A DNA stretch of 63,481 nucleotides, the filler included, from Reclinomonas americana ATCC 50394 (taxonomy: Eukaryota): the NCBI GenBank assembly GCA_048213135.1. It is 16 parts of 16 records of this genome, joined end to end, with 100 filler letters (N's around TTAATTAATTAA, not from the genome) between each part and the next. Parts side by side here need not be neighbours in the genome. Positions count along the whole stretch, not along the records: positions 17,009 to 39,910 come from AFZH01021536.1; 15 more parts are not named here. One strand, written 5' to 3'. This document shows positions 18,199 to 61,591 of the stretch, piece after piece. A program made the translations under genes and the position numbers. Below the pieces are notes generated by a model that did not search any database, was not told the DNA's origin, and was given only the letters and a program-made list of their open reading frames with translations. Within the stretch, counting starts at the first letter, position 1. Each line of letters opens with the position of its first letter.

Positions 18199-21100
18199 TC
18201 ACAGCTCCATGGTGAAGCCACCGAGCTTCTCTCTTAGATCGCGCATCACCATCCTCGCCTCAGCCGCAGTTGGTCTGTCATAGAAAAGCGACATGCATCT
18301 GCACAGATAGCAAGCGAAGTGAGTTGAGAACCAACTCTTCTCTCTCTCTCTCTTCTCCGTCGGACGCAACTGCACCCCCAACCGCAACATCCCACTTGCC
18401 ACATCTGCCGGCCACTCACCCGCAGCAAGATCCGCCTCCTCCGCACCGTCCGCCGACTCGAGTGACCGCTCCCACTGCGCAGCCTGTCCCACCACTGCAC
18501 GTGCCTCGCGACCCGTTAGCAGTTGCAGCAGAATGACTCCGAATGCGTGCAGATCCATGGCTGCACGAATCTCGCCCGAGCGGACGAACAGCGGGTCGAT
18601 GTAGTGCGGGGAGCCAGAGTGTTTGGCGGTGTGGTGGTGGGTCTGTGCGCGGGGAGAGAGGGGGATGAGAAGAGAATGACGAAGAGAGATGCATTCTCTG
18701 TTCGTGAACTCGCTCTCAAGTCACCATCGCCACACATGCGAGAGTGAACAATGCCATTCTGTCTCTTCTCTCCGCGACGAGAATTGTTGTGCAACTCATC
18801 CTCTCAACGTGGAGACAGACGAGTACACATTTACCTTTCTCTCACCAACTGCACAAATCACAGGTGCCGATCAAGGAGACACGGAGAACGAGAGTATTCT
18901 CATGCACCAGAGTTGCGAAGGAAATAAGTGTGGACACAGAATGAGCAAGGTGGTCACTCTGAAGAATACAGAAGAGTGCACATGTACGACAAACATGAAC
19001 GCTCTATCGATCACACCGCAAGCACGTGCTAAGTTTCGATGACAACCATGAAAGAATCCACTCGACACCGAGAATGAGAAGTGGAAAGAAGAAGTGCTCT
19101 TGGCCTTCCAACAAGCAACTGTGCAAGGGGATCGACAGAGCGAGTGCAACGCATTCCAACAAAGAGGAAGAGGAGAATCATCTTCCCGTGCAATCTCCCA
19201 CATGCTGGCACACGCTCACCTCCCCTTCGTCAAAAATACGCGCAATTCCAAAGTCACCGAGTCGCGGCTCACATCGAGTGTCGAGCAAAATGTTGGATGG
19301 TTTGAGATCGCGATGCACAACGCCGTTCTGAGAGGAGAGAGAGTGAGGGTGATTGTGGAAGAGAAGAAGAACATGTGAAAGAGAGGATGATTGTCTCCGA
19401 GAATGCGCGACGACGAGAAAGGAACGACGCACCGAGAGAGTGCCATTCGAGGTCAGATTGTGCGTGAGATGGAGAGAAGAAAAGAAAGATCGCCAACAAA
19501 CACATAGCAAATGATGACATCCACAAGTGAACTGTCGAGAGTGAGAAGCACGACTAGAGAAAGACAAGAAACACAATCCAACGACAGGCAACCCAAGGAA
19601 GTCGAGTCAGCTGACAATAACCAAAGACACAGCCTTATTAACAAAGAAGAGTCTCTAGATGCTCTCGCGAACCACACGCAAACAATGATTACTCTCGCGA
19701 AGCACAGCAGGAAAGGGAGGGAGTTGCCTCACTCACCTGATGCAAGAAGCACATGCCCTCAACAATGCCGAGTCCGATTTGTACGCGCTCCACCACCGTC
19801 AGTGGCTGCATGCCGGCCGCTCGCTTCATGAGTCGCACCTCCAGATCCTGTCCACTGTGTGCGAAGCAAGGGAGGTGAGAAGAAGAAGGGAACGCAGAGA
19901 GAAAAGGAAAGAAGCAAAAGGAGGAGACAACGCGCTTCGGTAAAGAAGAATGACGATCTCTGGAAGGTGCTCATTGTTGTGTATGGAGCAGTGAAGATTC
20001 AGATTATTACAAAGAGTGAGAGAGAGAAAGAGAAACAATGAAGGGAGGTGGAGAGCGAACAGCGGAGAGACAGATATGATGCAAGTAAACGGGAGTGAAC
20101 AGAAGAGAATCAACAAACCAACCGCCTCATCACACTTCCCCACGAACTCACCGCATTGCTCGATATACCAAACATCGCCCTCGCACACCACCGCCCTCCA
20201 CCAGCGTGGAGTAGCCGAGAAGTGGAACAAGTCGACGATGATGCAGTCGTCCAATTGTGTTCAACTGGCGAGAGAAGGAGTGAGACAAGAAACAACCCAA
20301 GCCTGTTTCCGTCTGGTAGCAACAGACCTCGGCATCGTACGACTCCATTGCCGATGGCGCGGCACCATCCAGTCGCTTGACAGCCACCTCGTCCTCGTTC
20401 AGCCAACACAGATACACCTCACCATGACCGCCTTCGCCGGCCTTCAGGTCGTCGGAGAAGGATTCAGTGGCGCGTAGAATGTCGGGCCAGGGGTACTCGC
20501 GTAGGCGATTGGGATCCGCGGCTGCAGATGGGGAAAGAGAGAGAGGTTCAGAGTGACAGTATGCAGAGAAGAGGTGCATCTCTCTCAGTCATACCTTGGA
20601 GGGTGGCCAGCTCGCGGCGCAAACGACTGTTTTCATGCGTGAAATCGACTCGCTCACTGGCAAACAGTTGCGCCTGCTGTTCCAGCTCACGCTGCAGCTG
20701 CGAGACACGTTGTTCCGCAGTGACGAGAGCCTGTTGGAGTTCCTCGTGCTGCCGCTCATGTTCCCGCAGCTGCTGCTCTCGCTCACAGCGGTATGCTTCG
20801 TATTCACGCTGAAGATGAGAAATGATGGCGTCCTTGTCGGCTAGCTGGCGCGCCACCGTGGCGGCGTCCAGTGCCTGCCCAGAAGCAGGGAGGTCAGAAA
20901 GAGTAGAGAGAAAAAGAGCGAGAAGAAACCACCACAGACGGTGCGCGAATGGACTGATATAGGAAGGAATTCGCAGATTCTTACCTGCCGCTGTGGCGAA
21001 GCTGCTGACGAGCAGATTTGATGATGGGACGGAGTAGGAACACAAAGTCACGAAGTGCAGGTCAGCATTCGCAACGGAGAGACAACCGCACACGTCAGAG

Positions 21101-21828
21101 AAAGACCTGGAGGTGGAGGAGATCGCGGCTGCTGTTGTTGTTGTTGTCGTTGACGTGGTGGTGCTGGTTGTGCAGCGAGGTGGTCCAGCAACTCGGCTAC
21201 TTGCTGGTGGTCGTAGTCGCGTGCCACTTGAGCCGCCGACTTGCCCTTCTTGTTGACCATGGGAACGAGGTCGGGGAAGCGAGTGGCGAGGAGTCGCACA
21301 ATGGCTTCGTGCCCTAAAGCAGCAGCGAAATGCAGTGCAGTGGACTGTGGATTCTTGTGACGATCATTGGTACCCGCCCGCACCATCTCCAGCGGACATC
21401 GTCGCTCATCGGCCAGCAGCCACTCCACCACTTGCAGACGCCCAAAGTTGGCAGCGATCATCAGCGGTGTCGTGCCGTAGTCGGTGACCATCTGTGCGAG
21501 TTCCGGACCGACACCACTCTCCTCCCACAAATACTCCAACACGGAGAGATGGCATTGTTGAGCGGCACAGAAAAATGCCGAGGCGCCATTCTCATTCATC
21601 TCCTCTCTCTTCAGCAGAGTGTGTTCGCCGTCAAGCGCCACCAACTCGCGCAGTGCCTTCACATTGCCATTCCACGCCATCTGCCATGCTCTCAGCCTGC
21701 GGAGCACAACAAGCAGAGAGTGAGTGTGCATTTCAGAGATCGATCTGACAATAATACAAACATCACACATACACACACCTCCGAGCGCCACCACTCCCCC
21801 CCACAGCTCCCCTGCGCGCCGCGCTCAT
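18199..21828 (-). CDS. Ankyrin repeat-coiled coil-IRAK/Pelle/RLK-family Ser/Thr kinase, copy 1 (10 exons, 614 aa)
   Basis: Exons 21828-21779, 21696-21107 (ANK), 21004-20985, 20874-20595 (coiled coil), 20521-20328, 20264-20152, 19854-19737, 19327-19220, 18642-18371, 18298-18199. All GT-AG, total 1845 nt in frame. Motifs [16 protein letters not shown] (Tyr gatekeeper), [37 protein letters not shown]. Confidence 0.9.
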
Positions 21829-21894
21829 CCTCCCCAACAACGACAGGAACAAAGTCGTGACAGAAGTCCCGCAAGTTCGTTCACTTCGTCGTTT

Positions 21895-22020
21895 CCACTT
21901 TACTTCCCTCGCTCACTCGCGACTCGACAAACGCACACAGCCATCGAACTTCACGTATGCGACAGAGTAAACACCCGCACAAACAGAACTCAACAAAGTC
22001 GACGTTCATCACGACGTCGC
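21895..22020 (-). promoter_or_regulatory. Conserved upstream (putative promoter/5'UTR) block of the array genes
   Basis: The block ctcgctcactcgc...cacagcc.tcgaacttcacg...gtcgacgttcatcacg lies upstream of copies 1, 2 (~26040-26150), 3 (~30190-30300) and 5 (~39540-39645), but not copy 4. Confidence 0.5.
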
Positions 22021-22312: not shown

Positions 22313-25300
22313 TCACAGCTCCATGGTGAAGCCACCAAGCTTCTCTCGCAGATCACGCATCACCATCCTCGCCTCCACCGCAGTTGGTCTGTCATAGAAC
22401 AGCGACATGCATCTGCACAGAGAGCAAGCGAAGTGAGTGGTGATTCAGCTTTCTCTTTCTCTCTCTCCTCCTCGCACGCAACTGCACTCCCAACCGAAGC
22501 ATCCCACACGCCACATCCGCTGGCCACTCACCCGCACTGAGGTCCGCCTCCTCGGCACCGTCCACCGATCCCAGAGACCGCTCCCACTGCGCAGCCTGCC
22601 CCACCAGAGTGCGCGCCTCGCGACCCGTCAGCAGCTGCAGCAAGATGACGCCGAAGGCGTGCAGATCCATGGCTGCACGAATCTCGCCCGAGCGGAAGAA
22701 GAGTGGATCGGTGTAGTACGAGGAGCCGGCGTGCTTGCAAGTGTGGTGGTGGGTCTGTGCGCGGGGAGAGAGGGGGATGAGAAGAGAATGACGAAGAGAG
22801 ATGCATTCTCTGTTCGTGAACTCATGCTCTCGCCGTGCTCTCAAGACATCATCGCCACACATGAGAGTGCACAACGACAATCTTTCCATTCTCTTGGCGA
22901 CGAGAAAAACGATGTGCAACTCATCCTCTCAACGTGGAGACAGACGAACACGCATAGTCTGTCTCACAAGCACTGCAGAGTCCAAGGTGCACGATCAAGA
23001 AGACGTGGAGAACGGGAGTAGTTCTCATGCACCAGGGTTGTGAGACACAGAACAGGAATGGAGAAGTGTGCACAGGCAACAAACACGAATGCTGCATCGA
23101 TCTCGCTGCTGACCGCTGCTGTGTCCATCTCTTCGATGACAGAAGCGAAAGAACCCACTCGACAGAGTGAGAAGTGAGAAAACGAGCTCTGGGTCTCCAA
23201 CAAGCAGCCCGATTCGAGGATAGATAAAACGAGTGCAACGCACACCAACTACAAAGAAGTAGAGAAGTATCTTCCTGCTATTCTCCATCTGAAGACACAC
23301 ACTCACCTCCCCTTCATCGAAAATGCGCGCAATTCCAAAGTCACCGAGGCGTGGCTCACATCGATTGTCGAGCAGAATGTTGGATGGTTTGAGATCGCGA
23401 TGCACAACGCCGTTCTGAGGGGAGAGAGGTGAGAGGGTGATGAAAGCCGGGAAGAACAAGATTTGGAAGGATAGGGCGATGGTCACCGAGAATGCGTGAT
23501 GACGGGAAAGGAACGACGGGCCGAGAAAGTATCGACAAATGGCAGATTGTTGGCGAGCTGGAAGAGAAGCAGGGATGAACGCCAACACCAACAGCGAGCA
23601 CCACATAACAAATGAGGGCATCTACAAGTGAACTGTTTCGAGAGTGAGAAGCACGACTAGAGAAAAGACAGGAACCACAATCCAACGACTGACAACCCAT
23701 TGAAGACGAGTGCCCGCCCACTCTCCGCTGACAACAACCAAAGACACAGCCTAATGAACAAAGAAGAGCCTCACGATGCTCCCACGAACCAAAGACACAA
23801 ACAAAGATTGCTCTCGCCAAGCGAGAGAGTCGCCTCACTCACCTGATGCAAGAAGCACATGCCCTCGACAATGCCGAGTCCGATTTGCACACGCTCCACC
23901 ACCGTCAGTGGCTGCATGCCGGCCGCTCGCTTCATGAGTCGCACCTCCAAATCTTGTCCACTGTGTGCGAAGCAAGGGAGGTGAGAGGAAGAAGGGAATG
24001 CAGAGAGAAATGGAAAGAAGCAAAGGAGGAGACAATGCGCTTCGTTGAAGAAGAATGACGATCTCTGGAAGGTGCTCATTGTTGTGTATGGAGCAGTGAA
24101 GATTCAGATTATTACAAGGAGTGTGAGAGAGAGAGAGAAAGAGAAACAATGAGGGGAGGTGGAGAGTGAAATGGAGAGACAGATATGATGCAAGTAAACG
24201 GGAGTGAACAGAAGAGAATCATCAATCCAACCGTCTCGTCACACTTCTCCCCACCACCTCACCGCATGGCTCGATACACTAGACATCGCCCTCGCACACC
24301 ACCACCCTCCACCAGCGTGGAGTATCCCAGCAGCGGAACAACGCGTCGATGATGCAGTCGTCCAATTGTGTTCAACTGGCATGAGGAGAAGTGAGCAACT
24401 GGCATGAGGGGAAGTGAGCAACAGGTTGATCCCATCTCCTTCTGCCTCAACGGACCTCGACATCGTACGACTCCATTGCCGACGGCGCGGCGCCATCCAG
24501 TCGCTTGACAGCCACCTCTTCCTCGTTCAGCCAACAAAGATACACCTCACCATGACCGCCCTCACCGGCTTTCAGGTCGTTGGAGAAGGATTCGGTGGCA
24601 CGTAGAATGTCGGACCAGGGGTATTCGCGCAGGCGATTGGGATCCGCGGCTGCACATGGAGAAAGGAGATAGAGAGGTTCAGAGTGACGGTACGCAGAGA
24701 AGTGGTGCATCGCTCTCACACGCACCTTGGAGAGCGGCCAGCTCGCGGCGCAAGCGACTGTTTTCATGGGTGAGATCGACCCGCTCACTGGCAAAGAGTT
24801 GCGCCTGCTGTTCCAGTTCACGCTGCAGCTGTGCGACACGCTGCTCCAATACGGCATTGGTTTGTCGAAGTTCCTCGTGCTGCCGCTCAGCTTGTCGCTC
24901 ATACTCCCGCAGCTGCTGGTCCCGCTCACAGCGGCATGCGTCGTATTCACGCTGAAGATGAGAAATGATGACGTCCTTGTCGGCGAGCTGACGGGCCACC
25001 GCGGCGGCATCCAGTGCCTGCCCAAAAGCAGGGAGGTCGGCAAGAGTAGAGTGAAAGAGAGCGACAAAACTTGCATTGGAGACGGTGCGCGAGTGTACAG
25101 ATATGGGAAGGAATGCGCAGATCCTTACCTGCCGCTGCGGCGAAGCTGCTGCTAGTGCGGCAGCACGATTCGGGCAGACAAAGGCATGAAACGCTGGTCA
25201 GGAAAAAGAGATGAACACGGAACTCGATGGAGCGAGATACCTGCAGGTGGAGATCGCTGTTGTTGTTGTTGTTTTTGACGTGGTGATGCTGGCTGTGCAG

Positions 25301-25952
25301 CGAGGCGATCGAGCAACTCGGCCACTTGCTTGTGACCATTCTCGCGTGCCCACTGAGCCGCCGTCTTGCCTGCCTTGTTGACCGTGGGAATGAGGTCGGG
25401 AAAGCGCGTGGCGAGGAGTCGCACAATGGTTTCATGACCCCAATTGGCAGCAAAATGCAGAGCAGTGGACTGTGAACTCCAGTGACGGTCATTGGTGACC
25501 GCCCGCACCATCTCCGGCGGGCATCGTCGCTCATCGGCCAGCAGCCACTCCACCACGTGCAGATATCCATTGAATGAAGCAACCATCAGTGGCGTCCAGT
25601 CATAATCGTCAACCACCAGTGCGAGTTCCGGACCGACACCACTCTCCTCCCACAAATACTCCAACACAGAGAGATGGCCTTCTTGAGCGGCACAGTAAAA
25701 TGCCGAGCCGCCACTCTTATGCATCTCCTCTCTGTTCAGCAGAATGTGTGCGCCGTCACGCGCCACCAACTCGCGCAGTGACTTCACGTCGCAATTCAAC
25801 GCCATATCACATGCTTTCGGCCTGCGAATCACAACAGGCAAAGAGAGTGGGTATTTCAGAGTTCGACCTGACAACAGCACACATGCACACACACACACAC
25901 ACCTCGCAACACCACCACTGTCCCCCACAGTTCCACTCTGCGCCGCACTCAT
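22313..25952 (-). CDS. ANK-coiled coil-IRAK/Pelle-like kinase, copy 2
   Basis: Same 10-exon layout. ANK exon 25821-25241, coiled-coil exon 25017-24726. Kinase motifs intact, no in-frame stops seen. Confidence 0.88.
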
Positions 25953-26462: not shown

Positions 26463-29400
26463 TCACAGCTCCATGGTGAAGCCACCCAGCCTTTCTCGCA
26501 GATCGCGCATCACCATCCTCGCCTCCGCCGCAGTTGGTCTGTCGAAGTACAGTGACATGCATCTGCACGAGAGCAAGCGAAGTGAGTGGCGAGTCTTCTC
26601 TCCATCCCTCTTCTCCTCCTCGCACGCAACTGCACTCCTAACCGAAGCATCCCACTCGCTACATTCGCCAGCCACTCGCCCGCACTGAGGTCCGCCTCTT
26701 CTGCACCGTCCACCGATTCCAGTGACCGCTCCCACCGCGCAGCCTGTCCCACCACTGCACGTGCCTCGCGACCCGTTAGCAGTTGCAGCAGAATGACTCC
26801 GAATGCGTGCAGATCCATGGCTGCACGAATCTCGCCCGAGCGGACGAACAGCGGGTCGATGTAGTACGAGGAGCCGGCGTGTTTGGCGGTGTGGTGGTGG
26901 GTCTGTGCGCGGGGAGAGAGGGGGATGAGAAGAGAATGACGAAGAGAGATGTATTCTCTGCTCGTGAACTCGCTCTCAAGTCACCATCGCCACACATGCG
27001 AGAGTGAACAATGCCATTCTGTCTCTTCTCTCCGCGACGAGAATTGTTGTGCAACTCACCCTCTCAACGGGGAGACAGACGAGTACACGTTTACCTTTCT
27101 CTCACCCACTGCACAAATCACAGGGTCTACCATCCAGGAGACACGGAGTATGAGAGTAGTTCTCATGCACCAGAGTTGTGAAAAAAAGTGAGCGGACGCA
27201 GATGAGCAAGGTGATCACGCTGAGGAATGGAGAACGAGTGCACATGTACAACAAACATGAACGCTCCATTGATCGCGCTGCAAGCACCTGCTAAGTCTCG
27301 ATGACAGAAACGAAAGAACCCACTTGACTGAGTGAGAGTGAGCAGTGGAAAGAAGACGTGCTCTGGGTCTCCAACACGAAACTATGCAAGGGGATCGGTA
27401 GAACGAGTGAAATGCACACCAACAACAAAGAGGAAGAAGAGAAGCATCTTCCTGTGCCACTGTCCATCTGCCGAGGCGCACACTCACCTCCCCCTCATCG
27501 AAAATACGCGCAATGCCAAAGTCTCCAAGACGTGGCTCACATCGATTGTCAAGCAGAATGTTAGATGGTTTCAGATCGCGATGCACGACGCCGTTCTGAG
27601 AGGAGAGAGAGAAAAAGTAAGTGTGATGGTTGAAGAGAAGAAGAAGGCATTTGGAAGGAGAGGGCGATGGTCTCCGAGAATCCATGACGACGGAAAAGGA
27701 ACGACGGGTCGAGAAAGTATCGACAAAAATGGCAGATTGTGGGAGAGGTGGAAAAGAAGACAGCGGTGCATGTACATAGCAAATGATGGTATCCACAAGT
27801 GAACTGTCGAGAGTGAGAAGAACGACGAGAGAAAAGACAGGAAACACAATCCAACGGCAGGTAACCCAAGGAAGACGAGTGCCCGCCCACTCTCCGCGGA
27901 CAACAGCCAAGGACACAGCCTTATGAACAAAGAAGATGCTCTCATCAACCAAAGACACATACAAAGATTACTCTCGCCAACAGGGAAACTGCCGCCTCAC
28001 TCACTTGATGCAAGAAGCACATGCCCTCAACAATTCCGAGACCGATTTGCACACGCTCCACCACTGTCAGAGGCTGCATGCCGGTCGCTCGCTTCATGAG
28101 TCGTACTTCCAGATCCTGTCCACTGTGTGCGAAGCAAGGGTGGTGAGAGGAAGAATGGAATGCGCAGGGTGGAGAAAGAGAAAAGGAAAGAAGCAAAAGG
28201 AGGAGACAATGCGCTTGGTTGAAGAAGAATGACGATCTGTGGAAGGTGCTCATTGTGTATGGACCAGTGAAGATTCTATTAATTCTAGGAGAGAGAGAGA
28301 GAGAACGAGAAACAATGAGAGGAGGTGGAGAGTGAAAAGGAGAGACAGATAAGATGCAAGTAAACGGGAGTGAACCGAAGAGAATCAACAAACCAACCGC
28401 CTCGTCACACTTTCCCCCACCAACTCACCGCATTGCTCGATATACCAAACATCGCCCTCGCACACCACCACCCTCCACCAGCGTGGAGTAGCCGAGAAGT
28501 GGAACAAGTCGACGATGATGTAGTCGTCCAATCGTGTTCAACTGGCATGAGGAGAAGTGAGCAACAGCTTAATCCCATTCCCTCCTGCTTTAACAGACCT
28601 CGGCATCGTACGACTCCATCGCCGATGGCGCGGCACCATCCAGCCGCTTGACAGCCACCTCTTCCTCGCTCAGCCAGCACATATACACCTCACCATGACC
28701 TCCTTCGCCAGCCTTCAAGTCGTCGGAGAAGGATTCAGTGGCGCGTAGAATGTCAGGCCAGGGGTACTCGCGCAGGCGATTGGGATCGGCGGCTGCAGAT
28801 GGGGAAAGGAGAAAGAAAGGTTTAGAGTGATGTTTCGAAGAGCAGAAATGCGTCTCTCTCACGCGCACCTTGGAGAGTGGCCAGCTCCCGTCGCAAGCGG
28901 CTGACTTCATGGGTGAAATCGACTCGCTCACTGGCGAAGACATGCGCCTGTTGTTCCAGCTGTGCGACACGCTGCTCCAATACGGTATTGGTATGTCGAA
29001 GTTCCTCGTGCTGCCGCTCATGTTCCAGTTGCTGCTGCTCTCGCTCGTTTCGGTATGCGTCGTATTCACGCTGCAGATGAGCGACACGCTGCTCGTGCTC
29101 TCGTCGCTGCTGCTCAGCTTGTCGCTCATACTCCCGCTGCTGCTGTTGTTCTCGCTCCTGTCGACATGCATCGTATTCGCGCTGCAGACTGGCAATGGTG
29201 GAGTCCTTGTCGGCGAGCTGACGCGCCATCGCAGCAATGTCGTCCATGGCCTGCAAGAAAACGCACGCAAGAGAGTGAGAGAAGAGTGAATCGAAGGCTG
29301 TCAGGTGGAGGGCGACTCACCCGCTGCTGCTGTGCGACTGAGGAACAATCAAAAGGAAACGTCATCAAGCGATGGAACAAAAAACGCAGTCGCCAAAGAA

Positions 29401-30608: not shown

Positions 30609-33600
30609 TCACAGCTCCATGGTGAATCCACCCAGCCTTTCTCTTAGATCGCGCATCACCATCCTCGCCTCCGCCGCAGTTGGTCTGTCATAGAACAGTG
30701 ACATGCAGCTGCACAGAGAGCAAGCGAAGTGAGTGGTGAGCCAACTCTTCCCTCCTCTCCATTGCACGCAACTGCACTCCTAACCGAAGCATCCCACTCG
30801 CTACATCCGACGGCCACTCACCCGCAGCAAGATCCGCTTCCTCCTCACCGTCCACCGACTCGAGTGACCGCTCCCACCGCGCAGCCTGTCCCACCACCGC
30901 ACGTGCGTCGCGACCGGTCAGCAGCTGCAGCAGAATGACACCAAAGGCGTGCAGATCCATGGCTGCACGAATCTCGCCCGAGCGGAAGAAGAGCGGATCG
31001 GTGTAGTACGAGGAGCCGGCGTGCTTGGCGGTGTGGTGGTGGGTCTGTGTGCGGGGGGATGAGAAGAGAATGATGAAGAGAGATATTCTCTGCTCGTGAA
31101 CTCATGCTCTCGCCGTGCTCTCAAGACAAATCTCCACACATTGCAGAATAATGACACCTGTCTATTCTCTTCGCGACGAGAAAAACGATGTACAACCCAT
31201 CCTCTCAACGGGGAGACAGACGAACACGCATAGTCTGTCTCACAAGCACTGCAGAGCCCAAGGTGCACGATCAAGGAGACGTGGAGAACGGGAGTAGTTC
31301 TCATGCACTAGAGTTGTGAGACGCAGAACACGAATGGAGAAGTGTGCACATACAACAAACATGAACGCTCCATCGATCGCGCTGCAAGCACCTGCTAAGT
31401 TTCGATGACAGCCATGAAAGAATCCACTCGACAACGAGAGTGAGAAGTGGAAAGAAGACGAGCTCTGGGTCTCCAACAAACAACTGCACAAGGGGATCTG
31501 TAGAACGAGTGTATCGCAACAAGACAGAAGAAGAGAACCCTCATGTTGTGCAATCATCCATTTGCTGACACACGCCACCTCCCCTTCGTCAAAAATACGC
31601 GCAATGCCAAAGTCACCGAGACGCGGCTCGCATCGATTGTCAAGCAGAATGTTGGATGGTTTGAGATCACGATGCACAACGCCATTCTGAGAGGAGAGAA
31701 AGTGAGGGTTACGGTGGAAGGAAACATTTGGAAGGAGAGGGCGATGGTCTCCGAGAATTCATGATGACGGGAAGGAACAGCCATCCGAGGGAAGGTTGTG
31801 GGAGAGGTGGAAGAGAAGAAAACAAATATCGCCAACAAACGTACTGAGTAAACGTCCCACATGTTGGAAGCCACGAGAAAACTGTCGAGAAAGAGAAGCA
31901 TGACTAAAGAAAAGACAGGAAACACAATCCAACGACAGACAGCTTAGTGAAGACGAGTGCTTGGCCAGTCTCGGCTGACAATAACCAAAGACACAGCCTG
32001 TATCAACAAGAAGAGTCTCACGATGCTCTCACGAACCAACAACACAAACACAGATTGCTCTCGCCTATATGAGAGGTTGCGCAGGGAGTCTGCCACCTCA
32101 CTCACCTGATGCAAGAAACTCATGCCCTCAACAATGCCGAGACCGATTTGCACACGCTCCACCACCGTCAGTGGCTGCATGCCGGCCGCTCGCTTCATGA
32201 GTCGCACCTCCAGATCCTGTCCACTATGTGCGAAGCGAGTGAGTGAGGAAGAAGGGCATGCGGAGAGAGGAGAAGGAGAAAAGGAAAGAAGCAAAAGGAG
32301 GAGACAATGTGCTTTGTTGACGAAGAGTGGCGACCTCTGGTAGACGCTCATTGTTGCTTATGAATCAGTGACGATTCAGATTATTACAAGGAGTGAGAGA
32401 GAGAGAGAAAGAGAAACAATGAAGGGAGGTGGAGAGCAAACAGCGGGAGAGACAGATATGATGCAAGTAAACGGGAGTGAACAGAAGAGAATCAACAAAC
32501 CAACCGCCTCGTCACACTTCCTGCACGAACTCACCGCATGGCTCGATATACCAGGCACCAACCTCGTACGGCATCGCCCTCCACCAGCGTGGAATAACCC
32601 AGCAGCGGAACAAGTCGGCGATGATGCAGTCGTCCAATCGTGTTCAACTGGGGAGAGAGCGAAGTGAGCAACAGCTTAATCCCATCTCCTCCTGCCTCAA
32701 CAGACCTCGGCATCATAGGACTCCATGGCCGAGGGCGCAGCACCATCCAGTCGCTTGACAGCCACATCTTCCTCGTTCAGCCAGCACAAGTACACCTCAC
32801 CATGACCGCCTTCGCCGGCTTTCAGGTCGTCGGAGAAGGATTCGGTGGCGTGTAGAATGTCGGACCAGGGGTATTCGCGCAGGCGATTGGGATCTGCGGC
32901 TGCAGATGGGGAAAGGAGAAAGAGAGGTTCAGAGCGACTGTAGGCACAGAAGAGGCGGATCTATCAGTCGAACCTTGGAAATTGGCTAGCTCGCGGCGCC
33001 GGCGACCGACCTCATGGGTGAGATCGACCCGCTCACTGGCGAAGACATGCGCCTGTTGTTCCAGATGTGCGACACGCTGCTCCAATACGGCATTGGTTTG
33101 TCGAAGTTCCTCGTGCTGCCGCTCAAGTTCCCGCTGCTGCTGCTCTCGCTCATGGCGGTATGCATCGAATTCACGCTGAAGATGGGATATGATGGCGTCC
33201 TTGTCGGCGAGCTGACGGGCCACCGCGGCGGCATCCAGTGCCTGCCCAGAAGCAGGGAGGTCGGCAAGAGTAGAGAGAAAGAGAGCGACAAGAAACCACC
33301 AGAGATGGTACGCGAATGGATAGACATGGGAAGGAATGCGCAGCTCTTCACCTGTCGTTGTATGGATGCTGCTGCAAGTGCGGCAGCACGATTCGGGCAG
33401 ACAAAGGCACGAAACGCTGGTCAGGAAAAAGAGACAAGCACAGAAAATATAAATGGAGCCAGATACCTGCTGGTGGCGATCGCTGTTGTTGTTGTTTTTG
33501 ACGTGGTGGTGCTGGTTGTGCAGCAAGGCGGTCGAGCAACTCGGCCACTTGAAGGTGACCCCGTTGGCGTGCCCATTGAGCCGCCGTCCTGCCCGCCTTG

Positions 33601-34163
33601 TTCACCGCGGGAATGAGGTCGGGAATGCGAGTGGCGAGGAGTTGCACAACATCTTCGCGGCCCCAGGCGGCTGCGAAATGCAGAGCAGTGGACTGCGGAC
33701 TTTTGGAGCGATCATTGGTGACGGCCCGCACCATCTCCGGCGGGCGTCGTCGGTCATCGGCCAGCAACCACTCCACCACTTGCAGATGGCCTTTGAAGGC
33801 AGCGATCATCAGTGGCGTCATGCCAGTATCGGTGACCGCCAGTGCGAGTTCTGGACCGACGCCACTCTCCTCCCACAAATACTCCAACACAGAGAGATGA
33901 CCTTCGCGAGCGACACAGTAAAATGCCGAGGCGCCCTCAACCATCTCCTCTCTCTTCAGCAGAGTGCGTGCGCCCTCACGTGCCACCAACTCGCGCAGTG
34001 CCTCCACATCGCCGTCAAATGCCATATCACATGCTTTCTGCCTGCAAAACACAACCAGCGAAGAGAGTGCGTTTGCACATAGATCGATCTGACTGCAAAA
34101 CACAGATCACAGGCACGCGCACCTCTTTCCTCCACCGTTGCCTCTGTTCTGCGCAGCACTCAT
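30609..34163 (-). CDS. ANK-coiled coil-IRAK/Pelle-like kinase, copy 4
   Basis: Same layout. Starts [16 protein letters not shown] exon 34041-33467, coiled-coil exon 33241-32974. Kinase motifs intact. Confidence 0.88.
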
Positions 34164-34847: not shown

Positions 34848-37800
34848 TCACAACTCAATGGTGAACCCACCCAGTTTCTCTCGCAGATCACGCATCACCG
34901 TTCTTGCTTCAACCGCAGTTGGTCGATCGTAGAACAGCGACATGCATCTATGAGGCAAAGTGAGCGGCGAGCCCACTCTTCGAAGCCTCCCTTTCCCTCT
35001 TCGTCTCCTTCGCACGCAACTGTACCCCCAACCGCAGTATCCCACTCGCCACATCCGCCGGCCACTGACCTGCGGCACGATCGGCCTCGGCCGCAGCGTC
35101 CACGGTGTCGAGTGATCGCTCCCATCGCGCCGCCTGTCCCACCAGCGTGCGTGCCTCGCGACCCGTCAGCAGCTGGAGCAAGATGACGCCGAATGCGTGG
35201 AGATCCATGGAGGAGCGAATGTCACCCGAGCGCACGAAGAGTGGGTCAATGTAGTGCGGGGAACCGGAGTGGGTGGCGGTGTGGTGGTGGGTCTGCGCAA
35301 AATGGTGAAGAGAGTGGGGTCAACAAAGGGACGGAGAGAAGGATGACGGAACTCAAGTGGAGGTCATGTTCTCAGAGTGCGACGAAGGCCTCAGAAGTGC
35401 AGGGAGACTGAATGCTTCACGAGAGTTTGGACAGGGAAATCTGCCATTCTCTCTGCTTCTTCATCATAGATAGCTGAGAAGATCCGGTCTCTCTGAGGTG
35501 CACACACAATATTCTGACCAGTGCGGGGGAATGTCAGGCTGGGAGTACTTTAAGATGCTGCAGCGCGCACGTTGCAGGAAATGTGATAGCAGGAGTGCAA
35601 AGTGTCGTGTCCTGAGGGAACTGTTGTGATCAACAAAGCAGTGACGGCCTCTCTCAAGGATCCCAACACAGATGCAGGCAGTTCTTCAAGCAGGCGAACA
35701 GAGAATAAGAAGGAAAAGCCAAAAAAACGGTTGCATCAGCGAGTTGCAACTGCAATAGCGTTGAACGCCTCTCAACGAACGAGAATTGAGTGCACACAAA
35801 CAGCAGGAAGGAGCAGTCAACACACTGCTTCGCCAGAGATCGATGCACGAACCAAGCCTCCCTCAATGAAGAAGAGAGAGCAGCACGCAAACAACAGGCA
35901 TATTACGTCTCTAGCTTTTCCTCCCCTGATGGAAGCATCTGTTGTGTGCCTACGAGCAAACACGCGCATTCACCACAAAGAGAGAGAGAGCGTCTCCAAT
36001 GTGCAACTCAGTGTGGGAAGAGACGAGGCTCAACAAAGAAATGGATGAGACACACATCCATGTGCATTGGAATCCCGTGCAGCATGGAGACCGAGAGAGC
36101 AGTTGGGAAAGAAGTGCTCCGAATCGTCAACAAGCACCGCAGCTCACAGATCGATAGAACGAGTGCAGTGCACTCCAACAAAGAAGCGGAGACACATCTC
36201 AATGTCCTTCGCAAATCATAGAGGCCGAGAGAACAGTGAGAATCATCGAGACACAAACATGCAACTCAGCTCTGGTATCGATAGATCGAGTGCAATGCAC
36301 TCAGACAAAGTAGGAGAAGAGATGCATCTGCCTGTGGTACGAAAACCATCAAGACTGAGAGAGTAGTGAGAAGCAGACATGTATCGAGTAACAAACATGC
36401 AACTCAGCTCGGGGATCTGGAGAATGAGTGCATTGGATTCAACAACGAAGAAGAGGAGACGCATCCCCATGTGCTAGAGACCGAGAGAGTAGCGAGGAGC
36501 AGGCACGCATCGAGACACAAACGTGCACCTCAGCTCGGGAATCGACAGAACGAGTGCATTGCACTCCACCAATCGAAGACGAAGAGAACCAGCTCCATGT
36601 GCTACGAAACTTCGTACAGCATAAATACACCGAGAGAAAAGTGAGAAGCAAACAACAGAGCGAGTGCAACGCACGCCAACAACGAAGAAGAGGAGAAACA
36701 TCTTCCTGCAATTCTCCATCTGAGGACACACGCTCACCTCCCCCTCATCAAAAATGCGTGCAATGCCAAAGTCTCCGAGGCGTGGCTCGCATCGGTTGTC
36801 GAGCAGAATGTTGGATGGTTTGAGATCGCGGTGCACGACGCCGTTCTGAGAGTGGAGAGAGAGTGAGGGTGACGAAGGACGGGCAGGTGAACATTTGGAG
36901 AGAGAGGGCGATGGTATCCGAGAATGCATGACACACCAAAGAATTCGTCATCTGAGAGAAGATTGTAAGAGAGGTGGAAGAGAAGAAAAGAAAGATCGTC
37001 AGCTTGAACAGTGAGCACCACATCACGAATGATGGCATCCACAAGTGAACTGTCGAGAGTTAGAAGCACGACTAGAGAAAAGACAGGAAACACAGTCCAA
37101 CGACAGACAGCTTAGTGAAGACGAGTCAGCTGACAATAACCAAAGACACAGCCTTATTAACAAAGAAGAGTCTCTAGATGCTCTCGCAAACCACACACAA
37201 ACAATGATTACTCTCGCGAAGCAGAGCAGGAAAGGGAGACTGCCGCCTCACTCACCTGATGCAAGAAGCACATGCCCTCGACAATGCCGAGTCCGATTTG
37301 TACGCGCTCCACCACTGTCAGAGGCTGCATGCCGGTCGCTCGCTTCATGAGTCGCACCTCCAGATCTTGTCCACTGTGTGCGAAGCACAGGAAGGTGAGA
37401 TGAAGAAAGCAATGCGCAGGGTGGAGAAAGAGAAAGGAAAGAAGCAAAGGAGGAGACAATGCGCTTGGTTGAAGAAGAATGACGATCTCTGGAAGGTGCT
37501 CATTGTGTATGGACCAGTGAAGACTCAGATTATTATTTCAAGGAGAGGGAGAGAGAGAAAGAAACAAGGAGGGGAGGTGGAGAGTGAATAGCGGAGAGAC
37601 AGATATAATGCAAGTAAACGCGAGAAGAGAATCAACAAACCAACCGCCTCGTCACACTTCCCCCCACCAACTCACCGCATGGCTCGATACACCAGGCACC
37701 AACCTCGCACCGCGTCACCCTCCACCAATGTGGAGTAACCAAGCAGTGGAACAAGTCGGCGGTGATGCAGTCGTCCAATGGTGTTCAACTGGAGAGAAGG

Positions 37801-39432
37801 GAGTGAGACAAGAAATACCACAAGCCCATCTCCTTCCGCCATCTCACACCTCGGCATCATACGACTCCATGGCCCACGGTGCGGCATGATCCAGTCGCTT
37901 CACAGCCACATCTTCCTCGTTCAGCCAACACAGAAACACGTCACCTTGGCCGCCTTCACCGGCTTTAAGATCGTCGGAAAAGGAGTTGGTGGCGCGGAGA
38001 ATGTCAGGCCAGGGGTATTCGCGAAGGCGATTGGGGTCCGCGGCTGCAGATGGGGAAAGAGAGGTTCAGAGTGACGGTACGCAGAGAAGAGATGCATCTC
38101 TCTCACTCGCACCTTGGAGTGTGGCCAGCTTGCGGCGCAGGCGATCGACTTCGAGGCGCAAGCGCTCATTTTCACGCGTCTGATCGGCAGACCGCTGTCG
38201 CTCATCATCGAGTGATTGAGATTGCTGGTCCAGTTCGCGTCGTAGCTGAGTGACGCGCTGCTCGGAAGTGGCGTGAGCTTGCTGTAATTCCGTGTTTGAT
38301 TGCTGTAGTTGACCCACTATGTCTTCGTGCTCTCGTCGCTGTTGCTCAGCTTGTCGCTCGTGCTCCCGCTGCTGCTGCTCCCGCTCCAGACGGTATGCAT
38401 CGTGCTCGCGCTGCAGTTGGGCGATGAGCGCATCCTTGTCGGCGAGCTGGCGGGACATTGCGGCGTCCTCGGCCTGCAGGGGAACAAGGAAGTCGAAAAA
38501 GGGTGCGAGAGATCGATAGTGAGGGCAAAACATGAGACAGTGCGCGAATGGACTGATACGGGAAGGAATGCGCAGATTCTCACCTGTTGCTGTGGAGATG
38601 CTGCTGCTGCTGGCACAGGGGCGGCTTCATGATTCGAGAGGACGAGAAATACACAAAGTCAAGATTCGCAGGTCAGGGACTGAGACAACAACAAAGGTCG
38701 CAGAAAAGACGGAAGGGAGATACCTGGAGGCGGAGACCGCGGCTGCTGTTGTTGTTGTCGGGGTGGTGGTGCTGGCTGCGCAGCGAGGCGTTCGAGCAAC
38801 TCGGCGATTTGTTGATGGCCCTGTTGGCGTGCCCATTGAGCCGCCGTCTTGCCCTCCTTGTTGACCATGGGAACGAGGTCGAGAAAGCGAGTGGCGATGA
38901 GTCGCACAATGGCTTCGTGTCCTTGAGCGGCAGCGGCGTGCAGAGCAGTGGACTGTGGCTCGCTGTGACGATCATTGGTGCCCGCCCGCACCATCTCCGG
39001 CTGACATCGTCGCTCATCGGCCAACAACCACTCGACCACTTGCAGATGTCCCTTGTAGGCAGCAATCATCAGTGGTGTCATGCCATAGTCGTTGACCAAC
39101 TGTGCGAGTTCCGGACCGACACCACTCTCCTCCCACAAATACTCCAACACAGAGAGATGGCCTTGGAAGGCGGCACGGTAAAATGCCGATGCACCCTCAT
39201 GCATCTCCTCTCTCTTCAGCAGAGTGCGCGCACCCTCACGCGCCACCAGCTCGCGCAGTGCCTTCACATCGCCATTCAACGCCATCTGCCATGCTCTCAG
39301 CCTGCAAAACACAACAACAAGCAAAGAGAGTGAGTGCGCTCCAATGACCGACCAGACAACAAACAACTGAATCACAAACCTCTTTCCTCCGCCATCACTG
39401 CCCGCCACAGCTCCACTCTGTGCAGCACCCAT
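34848..39432 (-). CDS. ANK-coiled coil-IRAK/Pelle-like kinase, copy 5 (most divergent kinase)
   Basis: Same layout. Starts MGAAQS, ANK exon 39301-38724, coiled-coil exon 38473-38113, G-loop GEGGQGDVF, enlarged intron 36737-35293. Confidence 0.88.
36140..36715. repeat. Diverged ~125-bp tandem repeat (about 5 copies) in the post-DFG intron of copy 5
   Basis: Recurring gatagaacgagtgca.tgcactc...aagaggaga.acatc and acaaacatgcaactcagctc. The first of these motifs occurs once in the same intron of copies 1-4. Confidence 0.75.
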
Positions 39433-61585: not shown

Positions 61586-61591
61586 GAGGGC

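What the first reader, a model, noticed from the sequence alone, without database searches (positions are those of the whole stretch)
18199..39432. Tandem array of five intact ankyrin-coiled coil-IRAK/Pelle kinase genes: candidate intracellular sensor-kinase system in a microbial eukaryote
Seen: five head-to-tail minus-strand genes on one contig, with identical 10-exon structure and no frameshifts or stops in my exon models. Each encodes about 5 ANK repeats, a Q/P linker, a coiled coil and a kinase, with no TM segment. Established: the pre-kinase motif Y.W.DI..AT.SFS, a Tyr gatekeeper (LVY), [12 protein letters not shown] and the C-lobe D..AG.WP are hallmarks of IRAK/Pelle/plant RLK-RLCK kinases. 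That family drives animal and plant innate immunity and normally carries a death domain, TM ectodomain or U-box rather than ANK repeats. Inference: a sensor (ANK), oligomeriser (CC) and effector (kinase) receptor family expanded by tandem duplication, like NLR or RLK clusters. I know of no characterised protein with this architecture, but could not search.
Basis: partly seen in the sequence, partly recalled or inferred. Interest (0 to 1): 0.93.

Follow-up and report, generated by a model that had tools for sequence, protein, structure and literature searches.

The report
Five tandem ankyrin–coiled-coil–IRAK-type kinase genes
An unidentified intron-rich microbe carries five intact, side-by-side copies of a gene that joins a fast-changing ankyrin binding surface to a highly conserved kinase of the plant-receptor/animal-IRAK type, which makes it a reasonable but untested candidate for a family of internal recognition kinases.

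Summary
Contig 17009-39910 carries five head-to-tail minus-strand genes. Each has 10 exons, all 45 introns are GT-AG, and none has a frameshift or internal stop. The proteins are 602-639 aa.

Each protein has about 5 ANK repeats, a Q/P linker, a coiled coil and a complete RD kinase, with no TM segment.

The kinase is RLK/Pelle/IRAK-class. PDB matches are almost only plant RLK/RLCKs and IRAK1/3/4. Of 17 looked-up relatives from a 1.84-billion-protein library, 16 are land-plant RLK/Pelle kinases and one is a Capsaspora 'TKL/IRAK' kinase. The closest are plant U-box kinases at about 34% identity. None of 157 related kinases carries ANK.

All copies are under selection. Kinase dN/dS is 0.09. It is 1.7 at the 22 canonical ANK recognition positions, measured against local dS, and 0.29 at exposed back-face positions. 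The coiled-coil exon is modelled as a parallel homodimer.

The sensor/immune reading is only indirectly supported. Expression, binding partners and the organism are unknown.

Verdict: a new domain variant of a known kinase family, of moderate interest.

The parts
18199..21828 (-). Gene A, 10 exons, 614 aa. Exons: 21828-21779, 21696-21107, 21004-20985, 20874-20595, 20521-20328, 20264-20152, 19854-19737, 19327-19220, 18642-18371, 18298-18199 (includes stop)
   Evidence: Splice model, all introns GT-AG, single terminal stop
22313..25952 (-). Gene B, 10 exons, 615 aa. Exons: 25952-25903, 25821-25241, 25148-25129, 25017-24726, 24649-24456, 24375-24263, 23960-23843, 23414-23307, 22754-22483, 22412-22313
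   Evidence: Reference model built first from anchors and GT/AG sites
26463..30110 (-). Gene C, 10 exons, 635 aa. Exons: 30110-30061, 29963-29410, 29337-29321, 29250-28869, 28792-28599, 28541-28429, 28122-28005, 27595-27488, 26902-26631, 26562-26463. Its coiled-coil exon carries a 37-residue internal duplication
30609..34163 (-). Gene D, 10 exons, 602 aa. Exons: 34163-34123, 34041-33467, 33371-33352, 33241-32974, 32899-32706, 32647-32535, 32223-32106, 31686-31579, 31044-30773, 30708-30609
34848..39432 (-). Gene E, 10 exons, 639 aa, the most divergent copy. Exons: 39432-39380, 39301-38724, 38606-38584, 38473-38113, 38043-37850, 37788-37676, 37373-37256, 36845-36738, 35292-35021, 34947-34848. 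Intron 8 is 1445 nt. It is the only copy that starts MGAAQS
21107..21696 (-). Gene A exon 2: ANK domain (5 repeats) plus Q/P linker
   Evidence: Pfam Ank_2 E 2.3e-20
25241..25821 (-). Gene B exon 2: ANK domain plus Q/P linker
   Evidence: Pfam Ank_2 E 1.9e-21; repeat register
29410..29963 (-). Gene C exon 2: ANK domain plus linker
   Evidence: Pfam Ank_2 E 6.8e-22
33467..34041 (-). Gene D exon 2: ANK domain plus linker
   Evidence: Pfam Ank_2 E 3e-21
38724..39301 (-). Gene E exon 2: ANK domain plus linker
   Evidence: Pfam Ank_2 E 5.3e-24
24726..25017 (-). Gene B exon 4: coiled coil, 97 aa. Homologous exons: A 20595-20874, C 28869-29250, D 32974-33241, E 38113-38473
   Evidence: Alignment A2. 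Modelled as a parallel in-register homodimer, ipSAE 0.55 against best control 0.00
18199..20521 (-). Gene A exons 5-10: pre-kinase helix motif plus RLK/Pelle/IRAK-class kinase domain
   Evidence: Pfam Pkinase on exon ORFs; PDB and library searches with 20154-20519
22313..24649 (-). Gene B exons 5-10: kinase region
   Evidence: PDB phmmer with exon 5 (24456-24647) and exon 9 (22485-22754)
26463..28792 (-). Gene C exons 5-10: kinase region
30609..32899 (-). Gene D exons 5-10: kinase region
34848..38043 (-). Gene E exons 5-10: kinase region

Best explanation
Shown:
- The locus is a tandemly duplicated family of five intact genes kept by selection, in an unidentified intron-rich eukaryote.
- Each encodes a soluble protein of about 600-640 aa. 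The order is a short N-terminal exon, five ankyrin repeats, a Q/P-rich linker, a 90-127-residue coiled coil, the RLK/IRAK-type pre-kinase helix motif, and a complete RD Ser/Thr kinase domain of the RLK/Pelle (IRAK) class.

Inferred mechanism:
- The ANK groove is the part that differs between paralogues, so each copy binds a different protein partner.
- The coiled coil holds two chains in a parallel dimer, which places two kinase domains side by side.
- Partner binding or clustering then permits trans-autophosphorylation of the Thr/Ser-bearing activation segment and phosphorylation of downstream substrates. IRAKs and plant receptor-like cytoplasmic kinases are activated by induced proximity in this way.

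Not decided: whether the partners are the cell's own proteins or come from microbes or viruses.
For: Structure and integrity:
- Five copies, 10 exons each, 45 of 45 introns GT-AG, one terminal stop each.

Selection (Nei-Gojobori means over 10 pairs):
- Kinase: dN 0.045, dS 0.47, ratio 0.09.
- Coiled coil: ratio 0.23.
- ANK: ratio 0.48.
- Intron divergence is 0.19-0.38. The copies are therefore old and constrained, not recent junk.

Family:
- Exon 5 against PDB: 41 of 41 matches at E<=1 are plant RLK/RLCKs or IRAK1/4.
- The 122-aa N-lobe ORF: 48 of 49 matches at E<=10 carry such names and 1 has an uninformative name.
- Exon 9: of 60 listed, 52 carry RLK/RLCK/IRAK names, 5 are uninformative and 3 are RIPK3.
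- Exhaustive HMMER over 1.84 billion representatives: 214 hits at E<=1e-3, best 2e-16. Of the 17 I looked up, 16 are land-plant RLK/Pelle kinases and 1 is a Capsaspora 'TKL/IRAK protein kinase'.
- The nearest ESM Atlas clusters are Streptophyta RLKs, score 0.97.
- The pre-kinase motif ..DIL.AT.SFS matches the RLK-family 'FSYEELEKATBNFS' helix. That helix is reported in RLKs, RLCKs and IRAK1/3/4 but not in Raf or Roco kinases (10.1101/2022.12.10.519927, abstract and passages; window alignment).
- The LVY Tyr gatekeeper position is present in 5 of 5.

Recognition module:
- At positions 2, 3, 5, 13 and 14 of each ANK repeat, 20 of 22 sites vary, against 37 of 99 framework sites (Fisher p 3e-6) and 7 of 20 exposed back-face sites (p 1.9e-4).
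- dN there is 0.54 against ANK dS of 0.31, a ratio of 1.73. All 10 pairs lie between 1.11 and 2.42. The bootstrap 95% range is 1.18-2.58. The back-face ratio is 0.29.

Dimer:
- Two copies of the gene B coiled-coil exon scored ipSAE 0.55, with the best of 3 controls at 0.00.
- That mark was reached by 21 of 30 proteins solved as pairs of one chain and 0 of 23 solved as single chains. On eukaryotes it was reached by 17 of 29 pairs, only 1 of the 7 with no older solved relative, and 0 of 30 single chains.
- The runs agree in at least 100% of contacts and the partner pLDDT is at least 87. Contacts are i-to-i with 3-4 spacing.
- Coiled coils resemble many solved structures, so the pass may be from memory.

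Solubility: no TM-like segment.
Against: - No transcript evidence exists, so the exon models, especially the 17-23-nt exon 3 and the first exon, are computational only.
- The ratio above 1 at ANK recognition positions depends on the neutral yardstick. Against whole-CDS dS (0.45) it is 1.18, bootstrap 0.86-1.64, with 12.8% of replicates at or below 1.
- The set of 'recognition' positions is recalled from designed-ANK work, and I had already seen the pattern by eye before computing it.
- Five sequences give little power, and pairwise comparisons are not independent.
- The Glu of the APE motif is Leu (DPL) in 5 of 5 copies. It is Glu in 52 of 72 aligned relatives. Full catalytic competence is therefore not certain.
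- No partner, substrate or activating signal is known.
- The tree that places the family beside plant U-box kinases holds only hits of my own search plus two bacterial outgroups. Branches are long (about 2.9 substitutions per site) and support is 0.85.
Confidence: 0.6

Rival explanations
1. This is the first reader's version: an innate-immune-like family of intracellular sensors. The ANK groove recognises non-self molecules such as microbial or viral proteins. The coiled coil oligomerises on recognition. The IRAK-class kinase then starts a defence response. Tandem duplication diversifies the repertoire, as in NLR or RLK clusters.
For: - The tandem array has a conserved effector domain (ratio 0.09) and a recognition face with a ratio of about 1.7 against local dS.
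- The kinase class is the one used by plant and animal innate immunity.
- The coiled coil is modelled as a dimer: score 0.55, best control 0.00. The mark was reached by 21 of 30 solved one-chain pairs and 0 of 23 single chains. On eukaryotes it was 17 of 29, 1 of 7 without an older relative, and 0 of 30.
- A Capsaspora TKL/IRAK kinase likewise carries an N-terminal repeat domain, LRR_6.
Against: - Nothing here bears on non-self recognition, on expression under challenge, or on a downstream pathway.
- There are only five copies, against tens to hundreds in typical immune receptor clusters.
- No death, TIR, NB-ARC or other immune adaptor domain was found in the ORF pieces scanned.
- Diversifying ANK faces also arise by co-evolution with the cell's own partners.
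- The nearest plant relatives, U-box kinases, are not known as receptors (recalled).
Confidence: 0.2
2. These are ordinary, partly redundant signalling or scaffold kinases. The array exists for dosage or simple subfunctionalisation. The ANK variation is relaxed constraint on non-structural surface residues and does not reflect selection for new specificities.
For: - The whole-domain ANK ratio is 0.48, below 1.
- Against whole-CDS dS the recognition-face ratio is 1.18, and the interval includes 1.
- ANK-kinase fusions are common in TKL kinases of protists (PMC3019232, passages).
Against: - Exposed back-face ANK positions are conserved (7 of 20 vary, ratio 0.29), while recognition-face positions almost all vary (20 of 22) with dN above both local dS and intron divergence. 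Surface exposure alone does not explain the pattern.
- The copies have persisted to dS 0.3-0.7 with every kinase intact.
Confidence: 0.15
3. The genes are silent or catalytically dead. They are either untranscribed copies, or pseudokinase scaffolds because the APE glutamate is lost.
For: APE Glu is Leu in 5 of 5 copies. There is no RNA evidence.
Against: - A kinase ratio of 0.09 over dS of about 0.47, with 45 of 45 splice sites kept, is not expected for silent DNA.
- Gly-loop, VAVK Lys, HRD, catalytic Asn and DFG are all intact in 5 of 5.
- One aligned relative has Asp at the APE position (DPD) and another has Gln (CPQ).
Confidence: 0.05

Closest known systems
Plant U-box kinases (PUB-type RLK/Pelle cytoplasmic kinases, e.g. 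Camelina 'U-box domain-containing protein 53', P0118; Phaseolus U-box kinase, P0012)
   Same: - They are the best BLASTP match to the spliced gene B protein: 34% identity over 283 residues, 147 bits.
- They are the sister group in my tree, support 0.85.
- They share the pre-kinase ..AT.SFS motif, LVY, HRDLKP.NILLD, YIDP and the C-lobe G.WP motif.
- Both are soluble, with the kinase preceded by a long non-catalytic N-terminal part.
   Different: - The plant proteins carry an N-terminal Usp domain and a C-terminal U-box (Pfam).
- The window proteins carry ANK repeats instead and end about 30 residues after the kinase, with no U-box.
- Identity is only about a third.
- The window proteins have a 7-residue insert in the N-lobe and DPL in place of DPE.
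Animal IRAK/Pelle kinases (IRAK1, IRAK3, IRAK4)
   Same: - They share the kinase class: IRAK1, IRAK3 and IRAK4 are among the PDB matches for both lobes.
- They share the Tyr gatekeeper position and the pre-kinase helix motif (10.1101/2022.12.10.519927, passages).
- Both are soluble kinases with an N-terminal protein-interaction module, presumably activated by proximity.
   Different: - IRAKs use a death domain to join receptor complexes (recalled). No death domain was found here; the N-terminus is ANK plus coiled coil.
- PDB E-values to IRAKs are weaker than to plant RLKs.
Capsaspora owczarzaki 'TKL/IRAK protein kinase' (P0062 / P0287)
   Same: It is a unicellular non-plant, non-animal eukaryote with an IRAK-class kinase fused to an N-terminal repeat domain. 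It groups next to the window + U-box-kinase clade, support 0.90.
   Different: It has LRR_6 repeats rather than ANK, three tandem kinase domains in one protein, and no evident coiled-coil exon equivalent. Identity to gene B is only 26-29%.
Known ANK-bearing TKL kinases (ILK, RIPK4/ANKK1, plant Raf-like ANK kinases, oomycete OS1 TKLs)
   Same: They combine ANK repeats with a TKL-group kinase in one soluble protein. P. infestans PITG_06288 has 15 N-terminal ANK repeats (PMC3019232, passages).
   Different: The kinase subfamily differs. No ILK, RIPK4, ANKK1 or Raf chain is among the PDB matches, even at E<=10 for the N-lobe. In the exon 9 search the only listed rows with names outside RLK/RLCK/IRAK are three RIPK3 chains at E 0.036-0.3, and five rows have uninformative names. 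RIPK4/ANKK1 have their ANK repeats C-terminal (recalled).

Membership tests
RLK/Pelle (IRAK) kinase family | The kinase domain is most similar to RLK/RLCK/IRAK members rather than to other kinase families | tested here: met
   PDB: 41 of 41; 48 of 49 plus 1 uninformative name; 52 of 60 with 5 uninformative and 3 RIPK3. Library: 17 of 17 looked-up hits are RLK/Pelle or annotated TKL/IRAK. Atlas clusters agree.
RLK/Pelle (IRAK) kinase family | A family-specific helix motif directly upstream of the kinase core ('FSYEELEKATBNFS'-like, ..AT..FS) | tested here: met
   EYPW[PS]DIL[RH]AT[EN]SFS in 5 of 5 copies, aligned with ..AT.SFS / ..AT..FS of plant and Capsaspora members. The motif definition is from 10.1101/2022.12.10.519927 (abstract, passages). 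The helix itself was not modelled.
RLK/Pelle (IRAK) kinase family | Tyr at the gatekeeper position (LVY.) | tested here: met
   LVY in 5 of 5, aligned with LVYEY of relatives. That this Tyr is diagnostic of IRAK/RLK is recalled.
RLK/Pelle (IRAK) kinase family | Monophyly with RLK/Pelle in a tree that also holds the other TKL families (RIPK, Raf/ILK, MLK, LRRK, STKR) | tested here: inconclusive
   My tree held only RLK/Pelle-type hits plus 2 bacterial outgroups. No named reference sequences of other TKL families could be obtained.
IRAK/Pelle proper (animal type) | N-terminal death domain | tested here: not met
   Pfam on the exon ORFs finds only ANK families N-terminal to the kinase.
Plant U-box kinases (PUB-type) | C-terminal U-box (and N-terminal Usp domain) | tested here: not met
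   The proteins end ...GGFT[MI]EL about 30 residues after subdomain XI. No U-box or Usp was found in the scanned ORFs. P0118 has both.
Receptor-like kinases (transmembrane RLKs) | Signal peptide, ectodomain and a TM helix | tested here: not met
   The highest 19-residue hydropathy mean is 1.25-1.39, and it lies inside the kinase domain.
ILK / RIPK4-ANKK1 / Raf-like ANK kinases | A kinase domain of the ILK, RIPK or Raf subfamily joined to ANK repeats | tested here: not met
   ANK is present, but none of these kinases is among the PDB matches. Three RIPK3 chains appear at E 0.036-0.3 for exon 9.
NLR / STAND immune receptors | Central NB-ARC or NACHT NTPase | tested here: not met
   No such Pfam hit on any exon ORF of gene A. 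The region between ANK and kinase is a coiled coil.

The most novel reading that the evidence does not exclude
A unicellular eukaryote uses a small, diversifying family of soluble ANK-coiled coil-IRAK-class kinases as direct intracellular recognition receptors. The hypervariable ANK groove binds foreign (microbial or viral) or danger-associated proteins. The preformed coiled-coil dimer turns binding into kinase trans-activation. This would be a one-protein 'sensor-IRAK' module that needs no death-domain adaptors, TM receptors or NLRs. It would show that coupling repeat-based recognition to RLK/Pelle kinases arose independently of plants and animals.
Probability: 0.15. Interest if true: 0.85.

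Novelty: new variant of a known kind. Interest (0 to 1): 0.55.

Why it matters
RLK/Pelle/IRAK kinases are central to plant and animal innate immunity. Outside those groups they are sparse and almost unstudied. A review lists 1-7 RLKs per glaucophyte or chlorophyte genome and none in rhodophytes (PMC10868138, passages). P. infestans has five IRAK-class kinases, all predicted inactive (PMC3019232, passages).

Here a microbial eukaryote keeps five apparently active copies. They carry a domain combination not seen among the 157 related kinases retrieved. The rapid change sits on the ANK recognition face, while the kinase is almost frozen.

If the ANK domains prove to bind paralogue-specific partners, the family would be a compact, tractable model for two questions: how recognition modules become wired to IRAK-type kinases, and whether such wiring predates or parallels plant and animal immunity.

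If not, it remains a clean example of lineage-specific domain shuffling and tandem expansion in the TKL group.

Tried and rejected
- Whole genome: none is held for this window.
- Sequencing runs: none was listed, and no RNA holder was listed. Expression and splicing could therefore not be checked, and read laying was not used.
- Earlier scan notes: nothing by place, sequence or words.
- Homologue search with the ANK exon: only generic ANK proteins. Three unnamed environmental (ENA) hits combine ANK with a U-box, and none of the 10 hits matched my kinase HMM.
- Homologue search with exon 9: only 2 hits, one named as a plant U-box kinase (P0012) and one unnamed fragment (P0011) that reads like one.
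- Organism identification failed. A WD40 exon search gave only generic WD40 proteins at 23-40% identity. Pfam on 20 neighbouring ORFs gave WD40, a weak LRR match and bacterial enzymes. The second Atlas query gave no usable hit. I name no organism.
- Two metagenome scans, with exon 9 and exon 5 patterns: 326 and 158 pattern matches, none confirmed by tblastn.
- Further copies: tblastn of gene B against the window gave 34 HSPs, all inside the array.
- Tandem Repeats Finder on gene E intron 8: no rows. The repeat finder did find the units.
- My first ANK HMM was family-specific. I replaced it with a generic single-repeat HMM with positive controls.
- A tree with named references of the other TKL families could not be built, because no such sequences could be brought in.
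- Literature: searches found no paper describing an ANK + RLK/Pelle or IRAK-type kinase. One search ('IRAK-like' + 'ankyrin repeat' + 'kinase domain') returned only PMC3019232. Lehti-Shiu 2009 (PMC2675737) is not held. No supplements were opened. The tables of domain combinations in the RLK surveys may bear on the novelty claim.

Full report
1. WHAT THE WINDOW IS

The 63,481-nt window is not one molecule. It holds 30 runs of exactly 44 N, in pairs separated by 12 nt. At the two spacers I read, the 12-mer is TTAATTAATTAA. The window is therefore about 16 contigs joined by 100-nt spacers.

The first two contigs and the last one have GC of about 0.62-0.66. They carry uninterrupted ORFs with bacterial-type Pfam hits: BD-FAE esterase, alginate export porin and NAD(P)H-binding. 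The rest has GC of about 0.50-0.57 and is full of CT/GA-rich low-complexity DNA and split coding regions.

The finding lies wholly on one contig, 17009-39910. No whole genome is held. No sequencing run was listed. Earlier scan notes were empty.

2. CHECK OF THE OBSERVATION

Direct-repeat families with five copies cover the region. Spacing is 4.08-4.25 kb, and 5.14-5.26 kb for the last copy.

I aligned the five units and built a model for copy B from open frames, conserved peptides and GT/AG sites. I then projected it onto the other copies and adjusted the first three junctions.

The result is that every copy has 10 exons. All 45 introns are GT-AG, and every CDS is in frame with one terminal stop. 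Protein lengths are A 614, B 615, C 635, D 602 and E 639 aa. Intron lengths are 57-117 nt for introns 1-5 and 9, about 300, 410 and 530-585 nt for introns 6-8, and 1445 nt for intron 8 of E. Pairwise protein identity is 79-85.5%.

tblastn of gene B finds no further copy elsewhere in the window (34 HSPs, all inside the array). The contig ends 478 nt upstream of gene E, so the array may continue.

The weakest parts of the models are exon 1 (41-53 nt, M[SG]AA...) and exon 3. Exon 3 is a 17-23-nt micro-exon with several in-frame NAG acceptors.

3. ANATOMY OF THE PROTEINS

- Exon 2 encodes the ANK domain. Pfam Ank_2 scores E 2e-20 to 5e-24, above the curated cut-off, in 5 of 5 copies. By register there are five repeats including an N-terminal cap. 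A Q/P-rich stretch follows.
- Exon 4 is a 89-127-residue heptad-like, E/Q/R-rich segment. Copy C has a 37-residue internal duplication, and E has two insertions.
- Exons 5-10 encode the pre-kinase motif EYPW[PS]DIL[RH]AT[EN]SFS and a full kinase. The motifs are GEGG[HQ][25 protein letters not shown], a Thr/Ser/His-rich activation segment, [18 protein letters not shown][EQ]WP and DRPT.
- There is no TM-like segment. The highest 19-residue hydropathy mean is 1.25-1.39, inside the kinase.
- One departure: the APE glutamate is Leu (..DPLF) in all five. It is Glu in 52 of 72 aligned relatives.
- Only gene E starts MGAAQS, a myristoylation-type start by recall. The others start MSAA.

4. WHICH KINASE FAMILY

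I could send only contiguous pieces to the search tools.

PDB searches:
- Exon 5 (64 aa): 41 of 41 matches at E<=1 are plant RLK/RLCKs (LysM-RLKs, CERK1, BRI1, a lectin RLK, PBL2, BIK1, BAK1) or IRAK1/IRAK4. The best E-value is 2.8e-6.
- A 122-aa read of gene A, in which intron 5 (63 nt) happens to be in frame and stop-free: 49 matches at E<=10. Of these, 48 carry RLK/RLCK/IRAK names and 1 has an uninformative name. The best is BRI1 at 9e-9. No other kinase family appears.
- Exon 9 (90 aa, C-lobe): of 60 listed, 52 carry RLK/RLCK/IRAK names, 5 are uninformative and 3 are RIPK3 at E 0.036-0.3.

No ILK, RIPK4/ANKK1, Raf, MLK or LRRK chain appears in any list.

The exhaustive HMMER search of 1.84 billion representatives with the 122-aa read gave 214 hits at E<=1e-3, 6 at E<=1e-10, and a best E-value of 2e-16. 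Identities were 28-56% over short stretches. There is therefore no close relative, and not even the organism's own proteins are in that library.

I looked up 17 of the 150 listed hits. Sixteen are land-plant RLK/Pelle proteins: a U-box kinase PUB53, CRK10, S-domain, LRR, lectin and other kinases. One is Capsaspora owczarzaki 'TKL/IRAK protein kinase'.

ESM Atlas neighbours are Streptophyta RLK clusters, scores 0.92-0.97.

BLASTP of the spliced gene B protein, done inside the script box, ranks Camelina PUB53 first at 34% identity over 283 residues.

A FastTree of 70 hit domains, the five window domains and two bacterial outgroups gave these groupings:
- The five window domains form one clade (support 1.0).
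- That clade is sister to P0118 (PUB53), P0012 (Phaseolus U-box kinase) and P0154 (support 0.85).
- The Capsaspora kinase is the next branch out (support 0.90).

Branches are long, and the tree lacks the other TKL families. It shows the nearest neighbours, not membership.

The alignment shows shared YIDP and G.WP motifs with the U-box kinases. The pre-kinase motif corresponds to the RLK-family 'FSYEELEKATBNFS' helix. A preprint reports that helix in RLKs, RLCKs and IRAK1/3/4 but not in Raf or Roco kinases (10.1101/2022.12.10.519927, abstract and passages read).

5. IS THE ARCHITECTURE KNOWN

A generic single-repeat ANK HMM was built from 47 repeats of the ANK proteins. It detects ANK in 5 of 5 window proteins and 3 of 3 positive controls. 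It detects ANK in 0 of 157 proteins returned by the kinase searches. An earlier family-specific HMM also gave 0 of 152.

Pfam on 24 of the best hits shows ectodomains, Usp + U-box, EF-hands and tandem kinase domains, but no ANK. The Capsaspora protein has LRR_6 repeats and three kinase domains.

Two metagenome scans found nothing.

In the paper library I found no description of an ANK + RLK/Pelle or IRAK-type kinase. ANK-TKL fusions of another subfamily, and five TM-bearing, predicted-inactive IRAK-class kinases, are described for Phytophthora infestans (PMC3019232, passages).

A review lists 1-7 RLKs per glaucophyte or chlorophyte genome and none in rhodophytes (PMC10868138, passages). A eukaryote-wide kinome tree infers an IRAK4-type kinase in the last eukaryotic common ancestor, with high duplicability and dispensability (10.1101/2020.01.27.920793, passages).

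The kinase class in a protist is therefore not surprising. The ANK-coiled coil combination appears unreported, within the limits of these searches. I opened no supplements, and an InterPro architecture search was not possible.

6. EVIDENCE ON FUNCTION

(a) Selection. Nei-Gojobori estimates over 10 pairs give a kinase dN/dS of 0.09 (dS 0.47), a coiled-coil ratio of 0.23 and an ANK ratio of 0.48 (dS 0.31). Aligned introns differ by 0.19-0.38. All five copies have thus been kept as coding genes for a long time.

(b) Where ANK varies. I used the positions randomised in designed ANK proteins (2, 3, 5, 13 and 14 of each repeat; recalled, not from a call).
- 20 of 22 such sites vary among the five copies.
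- Only 37 of 99 framework sites vary (Fisher one-sided p 3.3e-6).
- Only 7 of 20 exposed back-face sites vary (positions 18, 21, 25 and 26; p 1.9e-4).
- dN at the 22 sites is 0.54, which is 1.73 times the ANK dS. All 10 pairs lie between 1.11 and 2.42. The bootstrap 95% range is 1.18-2.58, and 0.05% of replicates are at or below 1.
- The back-face ratio is 0.29.
- Against whole-CDS dS (0.45) the recognition-face ratio is 1.18 (0.86-1.64), with 12.8% of replicates at or below 1.

I read this as good evidence that the paralogues differ mainly in their recognition groove, and as suggestive, not conclusive, evidence of positive selection.

(c) Coiled coil. Two copies of the gene B exon 4 peptide scored ipSAE 0.55, against 0.00 for the best of 3 controls. 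The mark was reached by 21 of 30 proteins solved as pairs of one chain and by 0 of 23 solved as single chains. On eukaryotes it was reached by 17 of 29 pairs, by only 1 of the 7 without an older solved relative, and by 0 of 30 single chains. The runs agree in at least 100% of contacts, and the partner pLDDT is at least 87. Contacts are in register with 3-4 spacing, that is, a parallel dimer. Coiled coils resemble many solved structures, so this shows likeness to a dimeric coiled coil, not that the protein dimerises.

7. BEST EXPLANATION AND RIVALS

The best explanation is a lineage-specific family of soluble, dimeric RLK/Pelle(IRAK)-class kinases. Their ANK grooves have diverged to bind different partners, and they signal by proximity-driven trans-phosphorylation. 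The structure, family and selection are shown. Partner binding, dimer-driven activation and output are inferred.

I put confidence at 0.6 for the whole statement, and at about 0.85 for the shown parts alone.

The immune-sensor version is a special case that nothing here tests (0.2). Plain redundancy with relaxed ANK surfaces fits less well, because the back-face control is conserved (0.15). Silent or dead genes are unlikely given the constraint (0.05), although the APE Glu-to-Leu change leaves some doubt about activity.

8. VERDICT

The family assignment is supported. The sensor interpretation is partly supported.

This is a new domain variant of a known kinase family, in an unidentified and apparently poorly sampled eukaryote. 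Interest is moderate (0.55). The idea is plausible and testable, but it rests on five paralogues, with no expression data and no partner.

Noticed in passing
window 1156-61571 (30 N runs): The window is a chain of about 16 contigs joined by N44 + 12 nt + N44 spacers. TTAATTAATTAA was read at 2 of them. Adjacency of genes across spacers therefore means nothing.
   Followed up: yes
1-2399 and 61572-63481: Three end contigs look bacterial. GC is about 0.62-0.66 and the ORFs are long and intron-free, with Pfam BD-FAE/Abhydrolase_3, Alginate_exp and NAD_binding_10. The assembly seems to mix a eukaryote with bacteria.
   Followed up: partly
36129-36577 (intron 8 of gene E): Intron 8 of gene E is 1445 nt, against 534-585 nt in the other copies. 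It holds 3-4 diverged tandem copies of a 126-138-nt unit. Tandem Repeats Finder missed them; the repeat finder found them.
   Followed up: partly
20265-20327 (intron 5 of gene A): This 63-nt intron is in frame and has no stop. If retained, it would insert 21 residues into the kinase N-lobe without breaking the frame.
   Followed up: no
39380-39432 and homologous first exons: Only gene E begins MGAAQS, a myristoylation-type start by recall. A-D begin MSAA. The copies may differ in membrane attachment.
   Followed up: no
ANK exons against kinase and coiled-coil exons of gene E: Synonymous divergence of E from the other copies is 0.28-0.35 in the ANK exon, 0.55-0.72 in the kinase and 1.0-1.4 in the coiled coil. 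This suggests a mosaic history, or gene conversion of the ANK exon.
   Followed up: no
28869-29250 (gene C exon 4) and 38113-38473 (gene E exon 4): The coiled-coil exons vary in length. C has a 37-residue internal duplication (LQREYDA.R.EREQQ... repeated), and E has insertions of 18 and 10 residues. Coiled-coil length therefore differs between paralogues.
   Followed up: no
11934-12656 and about 13150-13330 (+): A split WD40-repeat gene (Pfam WD40 E 1e-32) lies on a neighbouring contig. The best database relatives are only 23-40% identical, and those carrying a name are generic WD40-repeat or bacterial (MAG) proteins.
   Followed up: partly
47342-59544 (+), several contigs: Long plus-strand coding pieces on five successive contigs have no Pfam hit and no Atlas neighbour. 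They may be parts of one very large unknown gene.
   Followed up: partly
P0004, P0005, P0007 (unnamed environmental proteins): Three environmental proteins of 565-600 aa, among the hits to the window's ANK exon, are listed with ANK repeats and a U-box. In the one I scanned (P0004) the U-box is N-terminal. None matched my kinase HMM. This is curious, because the nearest kinase relatives are U-box kinases.
   Followed up: partly
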